Source of the DNA: Escherichia phage FL04
Strand: one strand, 5' to 3'
DNA: 64,000 nucleotides
Sequence record: PP358550
Every line of letters starts with the position of its first letter. Position 1 is the stretch's first letter. Shown here piece after piece: positions 7,596 to 16,956 of this stretch. The notes beneath the pieces are model-generated. The model was not told the DNA's origin. It searched no databases and was given only the letters and a program-made list of their open reading frames with translations. A program made the translations under genes and the position numbers.

Positions 7596-8324
7596 GTGAA
7601 CATCAAAAAGTTTATTGTTGATGTTCTGGAGGCGAAAAGCGGAAATAGACTAAACTCAAATCTTTTTAAAGAAAATAAAATTCCAGAAATGGAAAAATTG
7701 TATCCTGCGGAATTTCAGATTATAAGGAATGAGTTTAAGTTCTGTAATGGAGGTCTCAGAAATCAACAACCATATAACGAGGCTGTTTATAGATTGCGCC
7801 ACGGAATAACAGGAAGAGTTAAATGTGCAAGATGCCCAAATCCTGTAAATTATCATACATACTCTAGAGGCTATCATAAATTTTGCTGTTCTCGTTGCGC
7901 ATCGTTGGACCAGGCACAAAACATAAAGATTGAACGAGAATGCGCTAAATGTGGTAAACCATTTGTTGCAATAAACGTATCTCAAAAGTATTGTTCTGAT
8001 GAGTGTCGATTGTTCGAGAAGCGAGAGCGAGAACTAGATAGGCCATATCATCATGCCGAAAATGGTATAAAAATATCAAAAAGAGAAGCGTTAGAAATTT
8101 TAGGCAGAGTTGACAATTGCGAGATATGCGGTGTAAAATTCATAAATGAACGATGCGGCGTGAGAAAACGCCAAAAGTGGAAACATCTTGACCATAATCA
8201 TAAGACTGGTAAGATAAGAGGTGTTCTTTGTGGAAAATGTAATGCCGGATTAGGGATGTTCAAAGACGATCCTCAAAGATTATATGCGGCATTGGAATAC
8301 CTGAAACGAACTGACGGAGAATGA
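7596..8324 (+). CDS. Endonuclease VII-domain (HNH-like) nuclease with N-terminal Cys-rich zinc-ribbon repeats; putative homing endonuclease
   Basis: C-terminal HLDHNHKTGKIRGVLCGKCNAGLG matches Endo VII catalytic motif; several CxxC pairs upstream; probable GTG start at 7596 after GGAGAGAG (track starts at TTG 7581). Confidence 0.7.
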   Translation: MNIKKFIVDVLEAKSGNRLNSNLFKENKIPEMEKLYPAEFQIIRNEFKFCNGGLRNQQPYNEAVYRLRHGITGRVKCARCPNPVNYHTYSRGYHKFCCSRCASLDQAQNIKIERECAKCGKPFVAINVSQKYCSDECRLFEKRERELDRPYHHAENGIKISKREALEILGRVDNCEICGVKFINERCGVRKRQKWKHLDHNHKTGKIRGVLCGKCNAGLGMFKDDPQRLYAALEYLKRTDGE

Positions 8325-8330
8325 TATAAT

Positions 8331-10154
8331 ATGTCTGAATTTTTGCTGTTAGATGATCGCGCTCACTGTCTTAAGAGACCTTCAATGTACATCGGGTCAA
8401 CGACTTATGAATCACACAATCGTTTCCTATTTGGAAAATGGACCAAAGTTTCATACGTTCCTGGTCTAGTTAAAATTATTGATGAAATTATCGACAATTC
8501 TGTAGACGAGGCGATCCGCACTAATTTTGAGTACGCTAATGTTATTAGTGTGGATATAAAAGATAACATTGTGTCAGTAACAGATAATGGTCGCGGTATT
8601 CCGCAACATATTGTTACGACGCCAGAAGGGAAACAGATTCCACAACCAGTTGCTGCATGGACACGAGCTAAAGCAGGGTCTAACTTTGATGATACAAATC
8701 GTGTTACTATGGGTATGAATGGGATCGGAAGCGCGCTCACATCATTTTTCTCGTCCTGGTTTACTGGTGTGACGTGTGACGGAGAGAATGAACTGACCGT
8801 TCAATGTACCAATGGTGCAGAAAATATTAGCTGGTCATCTAAGCCGTCAAAACTGAAAGGAACTAAGGTTACGTTCTGCCCCGATTTCGATCATTTTGAA
8901 GGTATGATCATGTCACAAGAAATTTCAGATGTAATTTGTGACCGTATGTATTCCTTAAGTGTAATCTTTCCTAAGATCACGTTTAAGTTTAATGGCAAAA
9001 AGATAACCAGCAAATTCAAGGATTATGCTAAACTATACAATGATGATCCGTTTGTCATTGAAGATAAAAACTTTTCACTTGCCCTAGTTCCTGCGGTTGA
9101 AGGTGAAGGTTTTAAATCAGTATCATTTGCTAATGGTCTGTTTACCAAAAACGGGGGAACACACGTTGATTATGTGACAGATGATCTTTGTGAAGAGATT
9201 GTAAAACGAATCAAGAAAGAATATAAGGTTGATGTTACTAAAGCTGCGGTTAAGTCTGGATTGACCTGTATTCTTATTGTTCGTGAATTGCCAAACCTCC
9301 GTTTTGATTCACAGACAAAAGAACGATTGACTAATCCAACTGGTGATATCAAGCGTCATATTGATCTTGATTTTAAAAAACTGGCTAAAGTCATTGCGAA
9401 GAAAGAAAACATTATCATGCCTATTATTGCTGTAGTCCTGGCACGCAAAGAGGCAGCAGATAAAGCGGCAGCGACTAAGGCAGCAAAGGCAGCGAAACGG
9501 GCTAAGGTGGCAAAACACGTTAAAGCTAACCTTATTGGAACTGACGCAGAAACTACCCTGTTTTTGACGGAAGGTGATTCCGCGATCAACTATCTGATCT
9601 CTGTACGTGATCAAGATTTACATGGCGGTTTCCCGTTGCGAGGCAAAACTCTTACAACGTGGGAACAACCGGAGGCAAAGATCGTTAAGAACGCCGAAAT
9701 TTTTAACATCATGGCGATCACTGGCTTGCAATTTGGTGTTGATGCATTGGAAGTTATGCAATACAAAAATATTGCGATTATGACAGACGCTGATACTGAC
9801 GGGATTGGGTCTATTAAGCCTAGTCTGATCTCTTTCTTTGCACGTTGGCCTGAATTGTTCGAAGATGGACGAATCCGGTTTATCAAAACACCTATTATCA
9901 TTGCGGAACCAAAGAAAGGTGATGATGTTCGATGGTATTATGACCTAGAAGATTTTGAGAACGACCGAGATAATATCAAAGGTTATAGCATTCGATATAT
10001 CAAAGGGTTAGCATCGCTTACAGAATCAGATTATCATCGCGTGATCAACGATCCTGTAATGGAAATCATCACGTTACCGGAAAACTATAAAGAGCTATTC
10101 GATTTGCTCTATAGTGAAGATGCAGATCAGCGCAAAATTTGGATGCAATCATAA
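8331..10154 (+). CDS. 39: DNA topoisomerase II large subunit gp39 (unsplit, GyrB-like ATPase)
   Basis: 607 aa; Bergerat ATPase motifs (IDEIIDNSVDEAIR, DNGRGIP), Toprim region (LTEGDSA, MTDADTDG); length matches a fused gp39+gp60 as in T2-type phages. Confidence 0.93.
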   Translation: MSEFLLLDDRAHCLKRPSMYIGSTTYESHNRFLFGKWTKVSYVPGLVKIIDEIIDNSVDEAIRTNFEYANVISVDIKDNIVSVTDNGRGIPQHIVTTPEGKQIPQPVAAWTRAKAGSNFDDTNRVTMGMNGIGSALTSFFSSWFTGVTCDGENELTVQCTNGAENISWSSKPSKLKGTKVTFCPDFDHFEGMIMSQEISDVICDRMYSLSVIFPKITFKFNGKKITSKFKDYAKLYNDDPFVIEDKNFSLALVPAVEGEGFKSVSFANGLFTKNGGTHVDYVTDDLCEEIVKRIKKEYKVDVTKAAVKSGLTCILIVRELPNLRFDSQTKERLTNPTGDIKRHIDLDFKKLAKVIAKKENIIMPIIAVVLARKEAADKAAATKAAKAAKRAKVAKHVKANLIGTDAETTLFLTEGDSAINYLISVRDQDLHGGFPLRGKTLTTWEQPEAKIVKNAEIFNIMAITGLQFGVDALEVMQYKNIAIMTDADTDGIGSIKPSLISFFARWPELFEDGRIRFIKTPIIIAEPKKGDDVRWYYDLEDFENDRDNIKGYSIRYIKGLASLTESDYHRVINDPVMEIITLPENYKELFDLLYSEDADQRKIWMQS

Positions 10155-11250: not shown

Positions 11251-13359
11251 ATGAAAATGCATATTGATAATGAAGAAGTATTTGGCAGTGACTTGAGCGG
11301 TGCGGTTGATTTTTCTCTGAAAGCAAGTAGCAAGGCTTTTATGGTGCTTTCTAAAAACACTTATCAATATTGTGAACGTGCTTGTGTCCGTGAGTATTCA
11401 TGTAATGCCACCGACACCCACAAAGAAGCCGGAACCTTAGATCGTCCGTTTGACATTCATTTACCGACTGCAATCGAACCGTATTTTTCTGTGCGCGATT
11501 ATGGTACTGGTATTCCGTCTAAGAAAGAATTAGAACAACTGTTTACGGTTTACTTTGAATCAACAAAAGACCAGACTAATGATTATATCGGATCTTTTGG
11601 TTTAGGTGCGAAGTCTGCTTATAGCTATACCGACACCTTTACAATCGTAAACTATTACAATGGTCGCGCTTATGGCTTTACGGCATTTGTGCAAAACTCT
11701 ATGCCGAAAATGGTGCAGATTTTCGACGAACCGACCTGTGAAGACAATGGTCTGAAAATCACTATTCCGGTGAAAGAAAAAGACATTCAGACATGGCATC
11801 GAGAAGCGCAATTTGTACTGCGTCATTTTGGGGAACACAAACCGAATATCAATGCAATCGAAATTAATTATTTCCCTAGCTTTGATAATTATTATGTTTG
11901 TAATGGGCGTGATAACGATTCCTATGTAGTATATGCAATCATGGGTAAGATCCAGTATCCGATCCCGTATGAATATGTTCGCGGAACATGGTTAGAAGCT
12001 GTAAACCGCCAGCACCAGACCATTTACATTAATTTTGAGTTGGGTGATCTAGACCTTATGCCATCGCGTGAAGAAGTTCACTTGTCAATTGAGACTAAAG
12101 CGAACATCGAAAAACGCATTGCAGAAATCAATGAAATGATGTTGGAAAAGGTTAAAGAAAAGATCGCCAACATTAAAACAGAGCGTAAACTTGCGCAATT
12201 TATGAGCGAGTATTCATCGACTCAACGCAATATTATTAGCAAGATGGGTAAGATCGGACAATGGGATGATCCGGTAGCAATCTATAATAAGTTTGTGAAT
12301 GCGGGTAAAGATTCGCCTAATGACGTAGAAGGTCAGGTGTATACTCTGTATCGTACTCGTCACACAATCAGTAAATTGCGCCCTGCTTTCGTTAGCAGTC
12401 AATACAACATTACGCATTTTGTATGGATGCATAAAGAAGATATTCTGTGTGTAATTGATGATACCGATAAACCGAAACTGCGTGCACTGACTCTTAACGG
12501 CATGGTCCAGGAATACGGAATCAATAAAAAGGTACTGGTGTTCCGTCAGCGCAACGAAAAACATATGGAGACTTTCGAGTACATCAAACAGTATTATGAT
12601 GATTCTGAAATGACCGTGATTAAGGTATCAGAGGCCGATGATCTGCGTGCTAAAGCAGTTAAACCGGAGAAGACCGAGCGTACACAACGTGAAGCTACTC
12701 CCAAGCTGCCTAACGTGTATATTATGGAAAAGATTGGTGACAGTTGGCATAAAACCAGCCATCACATGAAAGCGGCAGAGATTCGCGAGTTATCAGGCTT
12801 GCACATGTTCCGCGTAGGTGATGCATTCGAAAGCCGTAGTCGTAAATCGATCTATAGTGAAAATACATTACATACGGCGCTTGACTACTTCGGGGTAACA
12901 AAGTATATTATTACTCGAAACGAGACACAAAAATATCTCGTTGACGAACAATTGGAATGTGCGCTAGAATTTGTTCGCGGTAAGCTGGCTGGTCTGGCTA
13001 AGAAGGTTAAGACCAATCATCTGGGGTATGGCGAATATCTGGGTGTGATCACTATGTTGTTTCATGACGATGAACTAGAACGCTGTGTTCCAGAATTTAT
13101 TGACAGACTGTACGGTCGTCATTATAATAAAGAGGTTTCCAAGTTACTCCTTCGTACTCGTTGGATTATGGACGAAGAAACTAAAAAGATCTGTGATGAA
13201 AAATTCACGGCAGCAAACGAACGAATTAAAGCAGTTTGTGCGAAGTTTAAAGAGAATAGCCCGTTACTGTATGATATTGTAGATAACTGGTATCGTATTC
13301 TGCACAACGACAAACGCGCACAAGACTTTATGAAACTGGTTAAGAATGTTAAATTTTAA
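11251..13359 (+). CDS. rIIA: rIIA protein (lysis inhibition / membrane integrity protector)
   Basis: 702 aa; N-terminal region and overall length similar to T4 rIIA; adjacent to rIIB in conserved order. Confidence 0.8.
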   Translation: MKMHIDNEEVFGSDLSGAVDFSLKASSKAFMVLSKNTYQYCERACVREYSCNATDTHKEAGTLDRPFDIHLPTAIEPYFSVRDYGTGIPSKKELEQLFTVYFESTKDQTNDYIGSFGLGAKSAYSYTDTFTIVNYYNGRAYGFTAFVQNSMPKMVQIFDEPTCEDNGLKITIPVKEKDIQTWHREAQFVLRHFGEHKPNINAIEINYFPSFDNYYVCNGRDNDSYVVYAIMGKIQYPIPYEYVRGTWLEAVNRQHQTIYINFELGDLDLMPSREEVHLSIETKANIEKRIAEINEMMLEKVKEKIANIKTERKLAQFMSEYSSTQRNIISKMGKIGQWDDPVAIYNKFVNAGKDSPNDVEGQVYTLYRTRHTISKLRPAFVSSQYNITHFVWMHKEDILCVIDDTDKPKLRALTLNGMVQEYGINKKVLVFRQRNEKHMETFEYIKQYYDDSEMTVIKVSEADDLRAKAVKPEKTERTQREATPKLPNVYIMEKIGDSWHKTSHHMKAAEIRELSGLHMFRVGDAFESRSRKSIYSENTLHTALDYFGVTKYIITRNETQKYLVDEQLECALEFVRGKLAGLAKKVKTNHLGYGEYLGVITMLFHDDELERCVPEFIDRLYGRHYNKEVSKLLLRTRWIMDEETKKICDEKFTAANERIKAVCAKFKENSPLLYDIVDNWYRILHNDKRAQDFMKLVKNVKF
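13100..13128 (+). promoter_or_regulatory. internal sigma70-type promoter near the 3-prime end of rIIA
   Basis: TTGACA 13100-13105, 17-nt spacer, TATAAT 13123-13128. Confidence 0.45.
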
Positions 13360-13370
13360 GAGGTGATATT

Positions 13371-13502
13371 ATGACTAAACTGACCGCTATCCAGAAAGAA
13401 ACCATCCGTAAACAATACGCTCGCGGCTTGACTAAAGGCGAACTGGCACGAATCTATAATGTATCAGACCGCACAATCCGCAAGGTTGTAGAAGCAAAAT
13501 AA
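13371..13502 (+). CDS. small helix-turn-helix protein (43 aa)
   Basis: ATG after GAGGTGA; HTH-like GLTKGELARIYNVSDRTIRKV; not in track (under 60 aa). Confidence 0.45.
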   Translation: MTKLTAIQKETIRKQYARGLTKGELARIYNVSDRTIRKVVEAK

Positions 13503-13514: not shown

Positions 13515-13564
13515 GATGTGAATCGGGCGGCGATAGTCGCCCAACTAATAGAGGAATGAATACT

Positions 13565-14557
13565 ATGACTAAAGCAAAAATCACCGTCTCTGACCGTAAC
13601 GTTCAATGCCTGGATTCTGCGAAACAAATCAAACTGGCTAAACAGTGGGGCGAAGGTAAGTTTACTACCCGCGAAGCACTTGCGGCAGCATTTGGTGTAT
13701 CTCGTCGCACTGCCTCCCGTGTATTACTGATTCAGAAAGACGCAGTAGCGGAAGGTCGCCAGGCACTAGAAAAACGTAAAGCACGCCGTAAAACCAGTAA
13801 AGGAAAAGGCGGTGAACGCGCAAAAAAGCCCGTGACTACTTCCTCAAAAATCGTAGCAATAGCCTCAACTAAGTTTATTACTATTACATGCGGTGACATT
13901 GTTTATACTGCTGATCCGTCGCATGTTAACTTTAATGAAGCACTGGAAGCGATTAAACATAATGATTTCATCAAAGCTATTACGCTGATTGACATTAAGA
14001 AAGCGGTTGAAGTATATTATCACGGCGCTTTCCGTATCGAAAATGGTATTGTGTATTATCATAATATTGTTCTTGATAATAATCTGACTCGTCGAGTTGT
14101 GGAGTCGATTAAAGAGAATAAGCCATATACGCACTATCTGAACTTCTTTGAGAAGTGCAAGAAAAACCCTAGCCGTAAGGCCGTAGATCGTCTATTTGAC
14201 TTCTTAGAGCACAACGACATTGAGATCGTGGAAGATGGTTGTTTCTATGCATGGAAACGTGTTGATGTTGATTATAAAGATTTCTTTACGCATACGTTTG
14301 ATAATAGCCCAGGTCGCACGGTTAAAATGAAGCGTAAAGACGTGGACCCAGATGATGATCGCACTTGCTCTAATGGACTCCACGTTGCAGCGAAACACTA
14401 TATTCCGCACTATGGCGGTGGACGAGGCCGAATCATTAAATGTAAAGTTGATCCGCGTCACGTTGTAAGTATCCCGAAAGATTATGCGAATGCCAAAATG
14501 CGCTGTCATCGTTACTATGTGGTTGAAGATGTGACCGAAGGGTTTAGCCATTACTAA
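13565..14557 (+). CDS. rIIB: rIIB protein
   Basis: Conserved blocks SRLFDFLEHNDIEI, FYAWKRVD, FDNSPG, SNGLHV, PRHVVSIP, AKMRC..Y.VVEDVTE matching T4 rIIB; start 13565 preferred over 13556 (RBS spacing). Confidence 0.88.
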   Translation: MTKAKITVSDRNVQCLDSAKQIKLAKQWGEGKFTTREALAAAFGVSRRTASRVLLIQKDAVAEGRQALEKRKARRKTSKGKGGERAKKPVTTSSKIVAIASTKFITITCGDIVYTADPSHVNFNEALEAIKHNDFIKAITLIDIKKAVEVYYHGAFRIENGIVYYHNIVLDNNLTRRVVESIKENKPYTHYLNFFEKCKKNPSRKAVDRLFDFLEHNDIEIVEDGCFYAWKRVDVDYKDFFTHTFDNSPGRTVKMKRKDVDPDDDRTCSNGLHVAAKHYIPHYGGGRGRIIKCKVDPRHVVSIPKDYANAKMRCHRYYVVEDVTEGFSHY

Positions 14558-14571
14558 CAGAGGAATTAATT

Positions 14572-14898
14572 ATGATTGATATGAAAGTTACTTGCGAAAG
14601 TGCACATGTTGAAGTTGAAAGTAGCCAATATTCATTGCGTCCGTCCGGTCGCGTTACTGTGACTATGGATGATGTTGATTTGGTTAATAATGTTAGTGTT
14701 GAAGATATCGTTAATGAGTATGATCATAGCGAACTGCTAGACGCAATTCCTGAACATGTTGTGATCCAGCACGTAGTAAGCAATAATGATCCATCGACTT
14801 TCATTAAAGAATATGGCGCTGATGAAATGCTCGATGAAATTGGTGAAAAGATTGTTATTGCATGGCTTGAAAACAACGGTTATACTGTAGAACAATAA
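14572..14898 (+). CDS. hypothetical highly acidic protein (108 aa)
   Basis: About 20 percent Asp+Glu, few basic residues; followed by terminator. Confidence 0.6.
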   Translation: MIDMKVTCESAHVEVESSQYSLRPSGRVTVTMDDVDLVNNVSVEDIVNEYDHSELLDAIPEHVVIQHVVSNNDPSTFIKEYGADEMLDEIGEKIVIAWLENNGYTVEQ

Positions 14899-14906
14899 TC
14901 AACATA

Positions 14907-14930
14907 GGCCGCTTTGCGCGGCCTTTCTTA
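14907..14930 (+). terminator. rho-independent terminator
   Basis: GGCCGC-TTTGC-GCGGCC hairpin followed by TTTCTTA. Confidence 0.6.
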
Positions 14931-14943
14931 GAGGGAATACATT

Positions 14944-15237
14944 ATGACGGTCACGGTTATTACCAAATACGACGACGAAAATGTGATTTACGGTGATGTG
15001 GTTGTTGTTCACGGTCGTAGCATGAAAGTTACTGGTAATTGTAAAGATGGTGCTATTATTTGCGGTGAATTGGTGAGAACAGTCAATCCTATCACCGACG
15101 AACAAAAGCGAGTCATTATCAGAAAACTTAAAGACAGTGGATATTGTAACGTCGTGGTGATTCAAGAAAAAATTGAAGTAGGCCAGTTATACACAAATCA
15201 GAAAACAATTCCAGTATCAATGATGAAAGGCGGTTAA
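14944..15237 (+). CDS. hypothetical protein (97 aa)
   Basis: RBS GAGGGA upstream of ATG. Confidence 0.55.
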   Translation: MTVTVITKYDDENVIYGDVVVVHGRSMKVTGNCKDGAIICGELVRTVNPITDEQKRVIIRKLKDSGYCNVVVIQEKIEVGQLYTNQKTIPVSMMKGG

Positions 15238-15239
15238 TA

Positions 15240-15602
15240 ATGCTAGGTCATTCTAAAATAGAAGATTGCTCATTCAGAGCAATGAAAGATGATTTTTCGG
15301 TCCTGTACGCGTCTATCCGAGAGTTGTTTGTAGATTTTAAGCAATTCAGGGAATACAAAGGCGTTAAGATGCGGGAGTGGGTATTCTGGCCTTTCTATAT
15401 CATTACTCTGTTTTCTATGGTATTTTGTTTTGTCGGGATCACTATCGCTAGTTTTGTCACTTGCGTTTTCCTGATTATCAGGTGTATCATGTTTGCTTTG
15501 ATTGCTGCCCCGTTTATTGTGTCAATCCTTCCGTTAAAATGGCTATTGGATTGGGCTGATAAATCTGATAAAGTAAAGAATGTGATTTGTAAGCGTGTAT
15601 GA
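15240..15602 (+). CDS. hypothetical membrane protein (120 aa)
   Basis: Two long hydrophobic segments (WVFWPFYIITLFSMVFCFVGITIASFV, MFALIAAPFIVSILPL). Confidence 0.55.
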   Translation: MLGHSKIEDCSFRAMKDDFSVLYASIRELFVDFKQFREYKGVKMREWVFWPFYIITLFSMVFCFVGITIASFVTCVFLIIRCIMFALIAAPFIVSILPLKWLLDWADKSDKVKNVICKRV

Positions 15603-15609
15603 GGTGAAG

Positions 15610-16956
15610 ATGAATAAATCAGTTACTTACCGCAGCCTTGAAAGCATTGTACATAATGAAGCTAAGGAATATGCGATCTATTCTGCCGAGGAACGCGGGA
15701 TTCCTCAATTAGTAGATGGGCTTAAACCAGTGCAACGCTTTGTTATGGAATGTGCTTTGCAAAAGAGTAAAGGCGACCGTAAGAAATTCCGTAAGATGGC
15801 AGATATTGGATCTGGTGTTGCTGAATTGGGGTATCACCACGGCGAAACTAATGCCGTAGAAGCCGGATCACTCATGGCGAATACATGGAGCAATAATACT
15901 CCACTGCTTGACGGTCAAGGTAACTTCGGATCTCGTTTAGTCCAGAAAGCAGGTGCAGCACGTTATATCTTTGCTCGTGTGCATGAAAACTTCTTTAAAA
16001 TCTATAAAGATATGAATTGCGCACCTAAGCACGAAGATCTGGAACACATCCCGCCAGCGTTCTACTTGCCAGTTGTGCCAATGGTATTGGCTAATGGTAT
16101 TAGTGGTATTGCTACAGGGTATAAAACTGACATTTTACCGCATTCACTGGAAAGCCTCATTGAATGCACAGAGCTAGCACTTGCCGGAAAACTGGATAAA
16201 GAACCTAGTGTTCAATTCCCGAAATTCACGGGTAAAGTTATCCCGCGAGATGATCGCGATGGTGTGATTCTTGAGGGTACATATGAACTAAACGGAAAGA
16301 CTAAGCTGACAATATCAGAAGTTCCTTATAAGTTCGACCGTGAGGAATATGTAGCGGTACTGGATGCACTGGAAGAAAAAGATCTGATTGTCTCATATAA
16401 TGACCGTTGCTCTAAGGACGGATTCAGATTTGAAGTAACACTGAAACGCGATTATTTCAAAAGCGAAGATGAATCCGCTCGACATGAGCAAATCATGAAG
16501 GATTTTAAACTAACGCAGTTAGTAGCCCAGAATATCGTAGTGGTTAATGAACGTGGTTTAGTAGAAGTATTCGAGAAAGCGAGCGATCTGATCCGTCGAT
16601 TCGTCGAAATCCGATTAGGGTATGTCGATAAACGCATTGAATTGATGCAAGCGGAAACGCTGGAAGCATACAATTATGCAATGGCTAAAGCCGAATTTAT
16701 CGATCGCGTAATTAAGGGCGAAATCGAGCTACAGGGCAAGAAAAAGGCCGAGGTAATGCAATCCATCAATGGACATGAAAAACTGCGTCCATACGCCGAT
16801 AAGCTAGTTTCTATGCCATTGTATAGCGTTACTCAAGAAGAGTATGATCGACTGGTCAAAGATGCCGATAAACATCATAGTGAATATGAGTATTGGACAA
16901 AGACGACCGCAATGAAGGAATATAAGAAAGATCTTAAAGAACTTAAGAAGGGTTGA
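15610..16956 (+). CDS. 52: DNA topoisomerase II medium subunit gp52 (GyrA-like)
   Basis: N-terminal AIYSAEERGIPQLVDGLKPVQRFV matches gp52/GyrA N-terminus; ATG 15610 after GAGGTGAAG. Confidence 0.9.
   Translation: MNKSVTYRSLESIVHNEAKEYAIYSAEERGIPQLVDGLKPVQRFVMECALQKSKGDRKKFRKMADIGSGVAELGYHHGETNAVEAGSLMANTWSNNTPLLDGQGNFGSRLVQKAGAARYIFARVHENFFKIYKDMNCAPKHEDLEHIPPAFYLPVVPMVLANGISGIATGYKTDILPHSLESLIECTELALAGKLDKEPSVQFPKFTGKVIPRDDRDGVILEGTYELNGKTKLTISEVPYKFDREEYVAVLDALEEKDLIVSYNDRCSKDGFRFEVTLKRDYFKSEDESARHEQIMKDFKLTQLVAQNIVVVNERGLVEVFEKASDLIRRFVEIRLGYVDKRIELMQAETLEAYNYAMAKAEFIDRVIKGEIELQGKKKAEVMQSINGHEKLRPYADKLVSMPLYSVTQEEYDRLVKDADKHHSEYEYWTKTTAMKEYKKDLKELKKG

What the first reader, a model, noticed from the sequence alone, without database searches (positions are those of the whole stretch)
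14572..14898. Highly acidic small protein downstream of rIIB: possible DNA mimic
The 108-aa product is about 20 percent Asp+Glu with very few basic residues and is followed by a terminator. Such composition is characteristic of DNA-mimic anti-restriction or anti-defence proteins.
Basis: inference. Interest (0 to 1): 0.35.

Follow-up and report, generated by a model that had tools for sequence, protein, structure and literature searches.

The report
Acidic early protein after rIIB
A real, strongly acidic 108-residue early gene of an RB49-type (Krischvirus) T4-like phage belongs to an unnamed family also found in the early operon of lambda-like prophages; it probably acts as a charged decoy for a host protein, but nothing here shows it mimics DNA.

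Summary
Window 14572-14898 (+) encodes a 108-aa protein with 23 Asp+Glu (21.3%), 5 Lys+Arg and net charge about -18. It is the most negatively charged ORF in the window. A conserved GC-rich hairpin with a short T-tract follows it.

The window is a Krischvirus (RB49-like), and the gene is RB49p272, "hypothetical". It is present in all 58 Krischvirus records and under purifying selection (dN/dS 0.13-0.19).

New here:
- It belongs to a family with no Pfam, NCBIfam or PDB relative (PHROG 14049).
- Short 69-82-aa members sit in the early-left (pL-type) operon of lambdoid prophages of Yersinia, Providencia and Vibrio, upstream of the recombination genes or, in Vibrio, just after them.
- The 103-108-aa form in virulent phages arose by internal duplication of a ~25-30-aa helical unit.
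- High acidity is conserved across the family.

The DNA-mimic reading is not demonstrated. There is no homology to Ocr, Arn, Gam or Ral. The AlphaFold model is poor (pLDDT 64, pTM 0.31) and has no structural match. Published data show that Krischvirus TB34, which carries a 97%-identical copy, is restricted by BREX and rescued by Ocr supplied in trans.

Best reading: an early accessory protein that binds a host protein through its acidic surface; the target is unknown. Interest is modest.

The parts
14559..14564 (+). Shine-Dalgarno AGAGGA, 7 nt upstream of the ATG. The ORF starts 14 nt after the rIIB stop (14555-14557), so it is most likely the last cistron of the rIIB transcription unit.
   Evidence: Sequence read directly. 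Conserved in 5 Krischvirus genomes. Annotated as an RBS in Ec_Makalu_003.
14572..14898 (+). CDS of 108 aa, the acidic early protein (= RB49p272 / NP_891843.1, PHROG 14049). Net charge about -18.
   Evidence: searches (phrog_14049, E 6e-66, full length; 58 of 58 Krischvirus records), 9, and 72 (dN/dS 0.13-0.19).
14572..14679 (+). N-terminal part, residues 1-36: predicted beta-hairpin (strands at residues 10-15 and 28-33) with a variable loop (residues 17-26) that carries a 3-codon indel among Krischvirus. This is the least conserved part of the rIIB-ORF region.
   Evidence: secondary structure, low confidence; 26 of 50 invariant columns at 14606-14655 against 39-50 elsewhere; dN/dS about 0.2 against 0.05-0.10 for the C-terminal part.
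14710..14784 (+). Helical repeat 1, residues 47-71 (VNEYDHSELLDAIPEHVVIQHVVSN). This is the inserted copy that is absent from the 69-82-aa prophage forms.
   Evidence: local alignment of the two halves scores 48, against shuffles with mean 18.2, sd 3.7 and maximum 38 (0 of 5000 reach it); short forms have a roughly 31-column gap here.
14800..14874 (+). Helical repeat 2, residues 77-101 (IKEYGADEMLDEIGEKIVIAWLENN). It carries the family signature EYGxxxLLDxIGxxxVIxWLExxGYTV, the best conserved part of the family.
   Evidence: (nearly invariant L87, I90, W98, E100, G103, V106), and 85 (dN/dS 0.05-0.10).
14906..14929 (+). GC-rich hairpin (stem 14906-14912 / 14918-14924, loop TTTGC) plus a TTCTT tail. 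Likely an intrinsic terminator or RNA-stabilising hairpin closing the rIIB-ORF unit.
   Evidence: -13.9 kcal/mol, z -2.4; identical in 5 genomes; annotated as a terminator in relatives. Not called on the + strand by the consensus scan.
13989..14018 (+). Candidate internal sigma-70-type promoter inside rIIB (TTGACA-18-TATATT, 11 of 12), about 550 nt upstream of the ORF. Uncertain.
   Evidence: consensus match only; 11 sites found against 7.8 expected in the region. Invariant in 5 Krischvirus genomes, but so is most of rIIB.

Best explanation
This is a small, soluble, folded early accessory protein. It works by stoichiometric binding: its dense, conserved carboxylate surface docks onto a basic surface of a host protein, probably one that binds nucleic acid, and blocks it. 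Candidate targets are a defence, repair or nucleoid factor.

In the Krischvirus it is translated as the last cistron of the rIIB message and is closed off by a hairpin. In lambda-like prophages the short version is made from the repressor-controlled early-left operon. It would therefore be made only after infection or induction.

The virulent-phage version carries a tandem duplication of the helical unit, which lengthens the charged module.

Shown here: the gene, its composition, purifying selection, the family, the duplication, and the early-operon context. Inferred: binding to a host protein, the decoy mechanism, and early timing in the Krischvirus. The target is unknown. True DNA mimicry is one sub-case of this explanation and is not established.
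For: - Extreme charge: net about -18, the top ORF in the window.
- Conserved acidity: across 41 members at 30-45% identity, median D+E is 23.6% and K+R 5.6%. The conserved columns are the hydrophobic core plus a few acidic positions (D36, E49, D88, E100).
- No catalytic or known domain in any member.
- Strong purifying selection, especially on the helical part (dN/dS 0.05-0.10).
- Present in all 58 Krischvirus records.
- Same locus in a divergent T4-like contig: acidic gene, then a TM protein, then gp52, with 40% identity for the acidic protein and 36% for the TM protein.
- Another long form lies among small early genes of a 135-kb phage contig.
- Short forms always lie on the CI/N strand of lambdoid prophages: between N and cIII in Yersinia, two genes after Ral in Providencia, and next to RecT/exo in Vibrio and IMG/VR contigs. 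By established lambda biology this is the pL operon, which houses ral, cIII, kil and gam, all of them host-directed inhibitors.
- In T4 the rIIB-gp52 interval encodes host-directed genes denB, ndd, stp and ac.
- Sharing between unrelated phage types argues for a host-directed rather than phage-internal function.
Against: - There is no direct evidence of any binding partner.
- The structure model is low-confidence (pLDDT 64, pTM 0.31), so even the fold and the surface charge layout are unverified.
- There is no structural or sequence link to any characterised inhibitor.
- The family is absent from plasmids and rare in bacterial species-representative genomes (2 loci). It is therefore not a widely mobile anti-restriction module like ArdA.
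- Acidic small proteins can also be chaperones, adaptors of phage proteins or regulators.
- A Krischvirus carrying the gene is still restricted by BREX and by a type I R-M/DarTG2 island.
Confidence: 0.4

Rival explanations
1. An Ocr-like double-stranded-DNA mimic that blocks type I restriction-modification or BREX, which is the core of the first reader's reading.
For: - Size, and charge density between Arn and Ocr (0.167 against 0.098 and 0.239).
- Krischvirus DNA can be unmodified (TB34; PMC13390438), so such a protein would be useful.
- In Providencia prophages the short form lies two genes after ral.
Against: - TB34 carries the gene at 97.2% identity yet is restricted by Salmonella BREX and fully rescued only when Ocr or Gp5 is added in trans (PMC11341690).
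- TB34 is restricted about 10^4-fold by a type I R-M/DarTG2 island. Which component acts was not resolved.
- hhalign to Ocr gives probability 1.0%, and to Arn 0.3%.
- No PDB fold match.
- The family is absent from plasmids and ICE-like DNA, where anti-restriction genes are common.
Confidence: 0.07
2. An inhibitor or decoy of a host DNA-end or repair complex such as RecBCD, functionally analogous to lambda Gam or T7 gp5.9. Other nucleoid or DNA-binding proteins (H-NS, HU, SSB) are also possible targets.
For: - Short forms sit in the pL operon just upstream of Erf/RecT/Rad52 plus exonuclease modules. This is where lambda places gam.
- None of the Yersinia or Providencia loci shows a recognisable Gam or Abc2 domain.
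- gp5.9 and Gam are acidic DNA mimics (established knowledge; EVADES text).
Against: - Several other unannotated small ORFs in those operons are equally good candidates.
- The Vibrio prophages that carry the family already have a gp5.9-like domain fused to their exonuclease.
- hhalign to Gam gives probability 0.2%.
- T4-like phages protect DNA ends with gp2 (established knowledge), so the need is less obvious.
Confidence: 0.15
3. A phage-internal partner: a small acidic adaptor or chaperone for a phage protein. Candidates are rIIB, the conserved 120-aa membrane protein downstream, or the gp39/gp52 topoisomerase in T4-likes, and recombination proteins in lambdoids.
For: - Tight coupling to rIIB (14-nt gap).
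- Conserved order of acidic gene, TM protein and gp52 in two T4-like lineages.
- Proximity to DNA-metabolism genes in all contexts.
Against: - Lambdoid prophages have no rII, gp52 or homologous TM gene next to the short form.
- The frequent Yersinia neighbour (about 320 aa, phrog_1376) is unrelated to rIIB and is absent in Providencia, Vibrio and other loci. No phage partner is therefore conserved across the family.
Confidence: 0.15
4. A dispensable passenger gene with no specific function, whose acidity is incidental.
For: No function can be assigned. Many small T4-like early ORFs are non-essential in the laboratory (established knowledge).
Against: - Purifying selection (dN/dS 0.05-0.2).
- Presence in 58 of 58 Krischvirus genomes.
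- Conservation of the acidic composition and the hydrophobic core over 30% identity and across phage types.
Confidence: 0.05

Closest known systems
T7 Ocr (gene 0.3), a DNA-mimic inhibitor of type I R-M and BREX
   Same: Small (117 against 108 aa), very acidic, few basic residues, made early, phage-only distribution.
   Different: No sequence relation (hhalign probability 1%). Charge density is lower (0.167 against 0.239). The predicted architecture is a beta-hairpin plus two three-helix repeats, with no PDB fold match. A Krischvirus carrying the gene still needs Ocr in trans to escape BREX.
T4 Arn, a DNA-mimic inhibitor of McrBC that also binds H-NS
   Same: A small acidic early protein of a T4-type phage, encoded in the same hyperplastic arm near gp52 and rIIB.
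   Different: Unrelated sequence (hhalign probability 0.3%). Arn is less acidic (0.098). Arn's known role, protecting hmC DNA from McrBC, is irrelevant for a phage genus that lacks the hmC pathway.
Lambda pL-operon host-directed small proteins: Ral, CIII, Kil, Gam (and T7 gp5.9)
   Same: The short family members occupy the same operon and position: between N and cIII, next to ral, and upstream of bet/exo-type genes. All are small early proteins that act by binding a host protein.
   Different: No homology to Ral, Gam or Ea10. Ral is basic and Cys-rich (net +0.045 per residue). The target is unknown.
PHROG 14049 (and distantly PHROG 7311 and 11519), families of unknown function
   Same: Full-length match, E 6e-66. 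The Yersinia short form also matches 14049 (E 1e-15), 7311 and 11519.
   Different: These are unannotated clusters and say nothing about function.

Membership tests
DNA-mimic proteins (functional class: Ocr, ArdA, Arn, Gam, gp5.9, UGI, etc.) | Small protein with low pI and a high Asp+Glu content | tested here: met
   108 aa, 21.3% D+E, pI about 3.8-4.1, net -18. Charge density lies between Arn and Ocr. Acidity is conserved family-wide.
DNA-mimic proteins (functional class) | Three-dimensional array of surface carboxylates that reproduces the spacing or shape of the DNA phosphate backbone, often as a dimer | tested here: inconclusive
   Two AlphaFold2 runs gave pLDDT 43.6 (7 sequences) and 64.4 with pTM 0.31 (41 sequences). 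Foldseek against the PDB found no hit at E<=0.001. The oligomeric state is unknown.
DNA-mimic proteins (functional class) | Competitive binding to the DNA-binding site of a defined target protein | not testable with these tools
   Needs pull-down, EMSA competition or a complex structure.
T7 Ocr family | Sequence or profile homology to Ocr | tested here: not met
   hhalign of the family profile against Ocr: probability 1.0%, 7 aligned columns. PDB sequence and profile searches listed no Ocr entry at E<=10.
T7 Ocr family | Confers resistance to BREX or type I R-M on the phage that carries it | tested here: not met
   From the literature, not my experiment. TB34 (gene 97.2% identical) is restricted by BREX and rescued by Ocr or Gp5 in trans (PMC11341690). 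It is restricted about 10^4-fold by a type I R-M/DarTG2 island (PMC12255303). A weak or system-specific activity is not excluded.
T4 Arn | Sequence or profile homology to Arn | tested here: not met
   hhalign probability 0.3%.
Lambda Gam / lambda Ral | Sequence or profile homology | tested here: not met
   hhalign probability 0.2% for Gam and 0.1% for Ral. No Pfam Gam or Ral hit on any of the 41 members.
PHROG 14049 (unnamed phage protein family) | Full-length match to the family profile | tested here: met
   E 6.1e-66, residues 1-108 on profile positions 1-108.
Known anti-phage defence components (PADLOC) | Match to any defence-system model | tested here: not met
   No hit at E<=1.

The most novel reading that the evidence does not exclude
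The family is a new fold of phage charge-decoy or DNA-mimic protein shared by virulent T4-like and temperate lambda-like enterobacterial phages. It would neutralise a host DNA-binding immune or repair complex other than BREX or type I R-M, for example RecBCD, a nucleoid protein or a newer defence nuclease. The tandem-duplicated helical module in virulent phages would act as a built-in 'dimer'.
Probability: 0.2. Interest if true: 0.6.

Novelty: new member of a known kind. Interest (0 to 1): 0.3.

Why it matters
If the protein does block a host DNA-binding defence or repair factor, it would add a structurally new inhibitor family. The family is a core gene of a phage genus used in therapy cocktails (RB49/JSE/Phi1 types). 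It also has compact 70-aa versions in Yersinia, Providencia and Vibrio prophages.

Krischvirus phages can carry unmodified DNA, so how they cope with DNA-targeting defences is a practical question.

As it stands, this is a well-defined and cheap candidate for anti-defence or host-takeover screens, not a discovery.

Tried and rejected
- **Domain searches.** Pfam, NCBIfam and PADLOC found nothing on the ORF and its two downstream neighbours. Pfam on all 41 family members gave only scattered sub-threshold hits.
- **PDB sequence and profile searches.** Only noise was returned (ASF1, bacterioferritin; E 0.03 or higher).
- **First AlphaFold2 run.** With 7 near-identical sequences it was useless (pLDDT 43.6).
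- **Second AlphaFold2 run.** With 41 sequences it improved only to pLDDT 64 and pTM 0.31.
- **Foldseek.** No PDB hit. In BFVD only unannotated homologues were found.
- **T4 Arn lead.** The weak PHROG 7311 profile is 92 aa, the same length as Arn, which suggested a link. hhalign rejected it.
- **rIIB-partner idea.** I asked whether the roughly 320-aa gene that follows the short form in Yersinia prophages is an rIIB analogue, which would make an rIIB-plus-acidic-protein module. BLASTP found no similarity, and the neighbour is phrog_1376 of unknown function.
- **Plasmid or ICE leading-region occurrence**, which is typical of anti-restriction genes. There was no tblastn hit in 72,556 plasmids for two short forms.
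- **E. coli prophage occurrence of the 76-aa variant.** No megablast hit. No hit in sequenced phages either.
- **Short and long relatives against 50,697 phage records.** Only the 58 Krischvirus records matched.
- **Species-representative genome scan.** Only 2 loci, in Yersinia massiliensis and Rahnella.
- **Literature search** for the accession, locus tag and PHROG ids found 0 papers.
- **Rfam** on the whole window found no RNA family.

Full report
**What the window is.** The 2.2-kb stretch around the finding is 98-99% identical to 58 GenBank phage records. All are Krischvirus, the RB49/JSE/Phi1-type "pseudo-T-even" coliphages. The local gene order is:
- gp39 topoisomerase (8331-10154)
- small ORFs
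- rIIA (11251-13359)
- a 43-aa HTH ORF (13371-13502)
- rIIB (13556-14557; PHROG "RIIB lysis inhibitor", E 3e-106)
- the ORF in question (14572-14898)
- a hairpin
- a 97-aa ORF (14944-15237)
- a 120-aa membrane protein (15240-15602)
- gp52 topoisomerase (15595-16956)

In RB49 the ORF is RB49p272 / NP_891843.1, "hypothetical protein".

**Checking the observation.**
- The ORF encodes 108 aa with 23 Asp+Glu (21.3%), 5 Lys+Arg and 4 His, and net charge about -18.
- Biopython gives pI 4.09. Its routine floors at 4.05, so I recomputed and got 3.79.
- Net negative charge per residue is 0.167, the highest of 145 ATG-ORFs of at least 60 aa in the window; the runner-up is 0.10.
- On the same measure, T7 Ocr is 0.239, T4 Arn 0.098 and lambda Gam 0.058.
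- A good Shine-Dalgarno (AGAGGA, 14559-14564) precedes the ATG by 7 nt, and the gene starts 14 nt after the rIIB stop.
- Downstream, AGGCCGC-TTTGC-GCGGCCT (14906-14924) plus TTCTT folds at -13.9 kcal/mol (z = -2.4).
- The tool's consensus scan did not call this hairpin on the + strand because the T-run is short. It is invariant in five diverged Krischvirus genomes, and others annotate it as a terminator.

The only caveat is that the terminator is plausible, not proven.

**It is a real, constrained gene.**
- tblastn finds it in 58 of 58 Krischvirus records at 87-100% identity.
- Pairwise dN/dS is 0.13-0.19 between the more diverged copies (0.38 for the near-identical SSG23/Makalu3 pair, which differ at only about 5 sites).
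- The helical C-terminal 60% is under very strong constraint (dN/dS 0.05-0.10).
- The N-terminal third is looser (about 0.2), carries a 3-codon indel, and is the least conserved 50-nt block of the whole rIIB-ORF region.

**The family.**
- Pfam, NCBIfam and PADLOC give nothing. PHROGs gives phrog_14049, of unknown function (E 6e-66), and weak links to phrog_7311 and phrog_11519, also unknown.
- The word-indexed search found only near-identical proteins.
- The exhaustive HMMER scan of 1.84 billion representatives found distant relatives: two other long forms, P0009 and P0012 (103 aa), and several 73-76-aa proteins.
- A profile search then retrieved 45 proteins. Most are "hypothetical protein" from Yersinia (enterocolitica, massiliensis, mollaretii, aldovae, intermedia, proxima), Providencia and Vibrio.
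- IMG/VR added further 75-82-aa variants on prophage-sized contigs of 40-60 kb.
- No member has a Pfam domain. The family profile hits no PDB sequence meaningfully.
- No member is on a plasmid.
- In one-genome-per-species bacterial representatives, only 2 loci appear.
- Among 50,697 sequenced phages, only the Krischvirus records carry it.

**Architecture.**
- The alignment shows that long forms equal short forms plus a roughly 31-residue insertion.
- The insertion is a duplicate of the C-terminal unit. Residues 47-71 (VNEYDHSELLDAIPEHVVIQHVVSN) align with residues 77-101 (IKEYGADEMLDEIGEKIVIAWLENN) at score 48. Composition-matched shuffles have mean 18.2, sd 3.7 and maximum 38, and 0 of 5000 reach the observed score.
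- P0009 and P0012 show the same two-repeat layout.
- AlphaFold2 with the 41-sequence alignment predicts a beta-hairpin (residues 10-15 and 28-33) followed by six short helices, three per repeat. Confidence is poor (pLDDT 64.4, pTM 0.31).
- Foldseek finds nothing in the PDB (best E 6). In BFVD it finds only unannotated homologues.
- Conserved columns are the hydrophobic core (L37, I46, Y50, L87, I90, W98, L99, V106), a Gly (G103), and a few acidic positions (D36, E49, D88, E100).
- The whole family is acidic: median 23.6% D+E and 5.6% K+R.

**Genomic context elsewhere.** In eight Yersinia prophage loci the short gene lies on the same strand as, and downstream of, the CI repressor (Peptidase_S24). 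RexAB is present in one of these loci, and an N-like antiterminator in most.
- The gene is upstream of cIII and of the Erf/RecT/Rad52 plus SSB/exonuclease recombination module, methyltransferases, xis and int.
- By established lambda genetics this is the pL early-left operon, silent in the lysogen. The slot between N and cIII is where lambda has ral and ea10.

Other contexts:
- In Providencia it is two genes after a Ral homologue (PF11058).
- In Vibrio it follows RecT and an exonuclease and precedes Dam.
- In an IMG/VR contig it lies between CI and RecT/YqaJ.
- A roughly 320-aa protein (phrog_1376, unknown function) follows it in 7 of 8 Yersinia loci but not elsewhere. It is unrelated to rIIB.
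- Long form P0012 is in a 135-kb virulent-type contig amid small early genes, near T4_Y16D, DUF2528, DNA ligase and RdgC.
- Long form P0009 (40% identical to the window protein) is in a divergent T4-like contig. It is immediately followed by a 123-aa membrane protein, 36% identical to window 15240-15602, and then gp52.

The acidic gene, membrane protein and gp52 arrangement is therefore ancestral to at least two T4-like lineages. In T4 itself, the rIIB-gp52 interval instead holds denB, ndd, stp and ac, with arn just beyond gp52. This is a classic hyperplastic, host-directed region.

**Is it a DNA mimic?** The generic criteria (small, pI below 5, about 20% or more D+E) are met, and the conservation of charge argues that the charge is functional. 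The specific criteria are not met or not testable:
- hhalign of the family profile against Ocr, Arn, Gam, Ral and Ea10 gives probabilities of 1.0, 0.3, 0.2, 0.1 and 0.2%.
- No solved mimic appears in the PDB searches.
- The model is too weak for surface analysis.

The literature gives a functional constraint.
- Krischvirus TB34 has canonical cytosines (PMC13390438) and encodes this protein at 97.2% identity (H67).
- It is nevertheless restricted by Salmonella BREX: a 10-100-fold drop in plating efficiency (EOP), and a further 10^4-fold when brxL is deleted. It is fully rescued by Ocr or Sp6 Gp5 supplied in trans (PMC11341690).
- It is also restricted about 10^4-fold by an EPEC type I R-M/DarTG2 island (PMC12255303), although the responsible component was not resolved.

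An Ocr-equivalent activity is therefore unlikely. Other targets are not excluded. As a base rate, 11 of 268 curated anti-defence proteins are DNA mimics.

**Most likely mechanism.** I commit to this reading: an early accessory protein that acts stoichiometrically. It would use a conserved carboxylate-rich surface on a small beta-hairpin plus helical-repeat fold to occupy a basic surface, probably one that binds nucleic acid, of a host protein. The helical module is duplicated in virulent phages. Confidence is 0.4.

The rivals are:
- an Ocr-like anti-R-M/BREX mimic (0.07)
- a RecBCD or nucleoid-protein decoy in the Gam/gp5.9 sense (0.15), which is really a more specific version of the main explanation. 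It is suggested by the position upstream of recombination genes in prophages that lack a recognisable Gam. It is weakened because the Vibrio prophages already carry a gp5.9-like domain.
- a partner of a phage protein (0.15)
- a functionless passenger (0.05)

The remaining probability is "something else".

**Novelty and verdict.**
- The gene is already deposited many times as "hypothetical". No paper mentions it.
- New here are the definition of the family, its presence in both T4-like and lambdoid phages, the internal duplication, the conserved acidity, and the literature-based argument against an Ocr-like role.
- This makes it a new, uncharacterised member of the known kind "small acidic early phage proteins". 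It is a reasonable screening candidate of modest interest (0.3).
- The DNA-mimic label should be treated as an untested hypothesis.

Noticed in passing
window 13989-14018 (+), inside rIIB: Near-consensus sigma-70 site TTGACA-18-TATATT (11 of 12) about 550 nt upstream of the acidic ORF. It is invariant in five Krischvirus genomes, but most of rIIB is too. It could be an internal promoter.
   Followed up: partly
window 14606-14655 (residues ~12-28 of the ORF): A local divergence hotspot with a 3-codon indel inside an otherwise 90-100% conserved rIIB-ORF region. Phage Skers is diverged from the window in the N-terminal part (dS 0.61) but nearly identical in the C-terminal part (dS 0.056). That suggests an intragenic recombination mosaic.
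   Followed up: partly
window 15240-15602 (+) and L053:1215-1586: A 120-aa predicted membrane protein immediately upstream of gp52 is conserved (36% identity) in a divergent T4-like contig, again directly after the acidic gene. It occupies the slot of the T4 membrane proteins 52.1 and ac. Function unknown.
   Followed up: partly
window 13371-13502 (+) and rIIB N-terminus (13556-): A 43-aa ORF between rIIA and rIIB looks like a bare helix-turn-helix (…GLTKGELARIYNVSDRTIRKV…). rIIB residues about 37-57 also give weak HTH hits in Pfam (E 0.02-0.35).
   Followed up: no
L014:5515-7254 and L015:5568-7256 (Vibrio prophages): A YqaJ-type exonuclease is fused to a domain matching PF25708, Phage_T7_Gp5_9 (the RecBCD inhibitor). 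This would be a recombination exonuclease carrying its own RecBCD decoy.
   Followed up: no
L053:6906-7154: A weak Tad2-like (anti-Thoeris) hit on an 82-aa ORF next to the holin t gene in the divergent T4-like contig.
   Followed up: no
L003-L009 about 8300-9540 (Yersinia prophages): A 317-339-aa coiled-coil-rich protein (phrog_1376, no Pfam) follows the short acidic gene in 7 of 8 Yersinia loci, between it and cIII. It is possibly a functional partner in that genus only.
   Followed up: partly
Literature on Krischvirus SAP and TB34 (relatives of the window): SAP and TB34 are 99.96% identical, yet SAP DNA carries modified cytosines and TB34 does not. No known hmC or glucosyl-transferase genes are present, and the authors left this unexplained (PMC13390438).
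   Followed up: no
window 15595 / 15610 (gp52 start): The gp52 ORF can start at GTG 15595, overlapping the upstream gene by 8 nt, or at ATG 15610. Relatives annotate differing lengths.
   Followed up: no
whole window: There is no Rfam family at gathering threshold anywhere in the 64 kb.
   Followed up: yes
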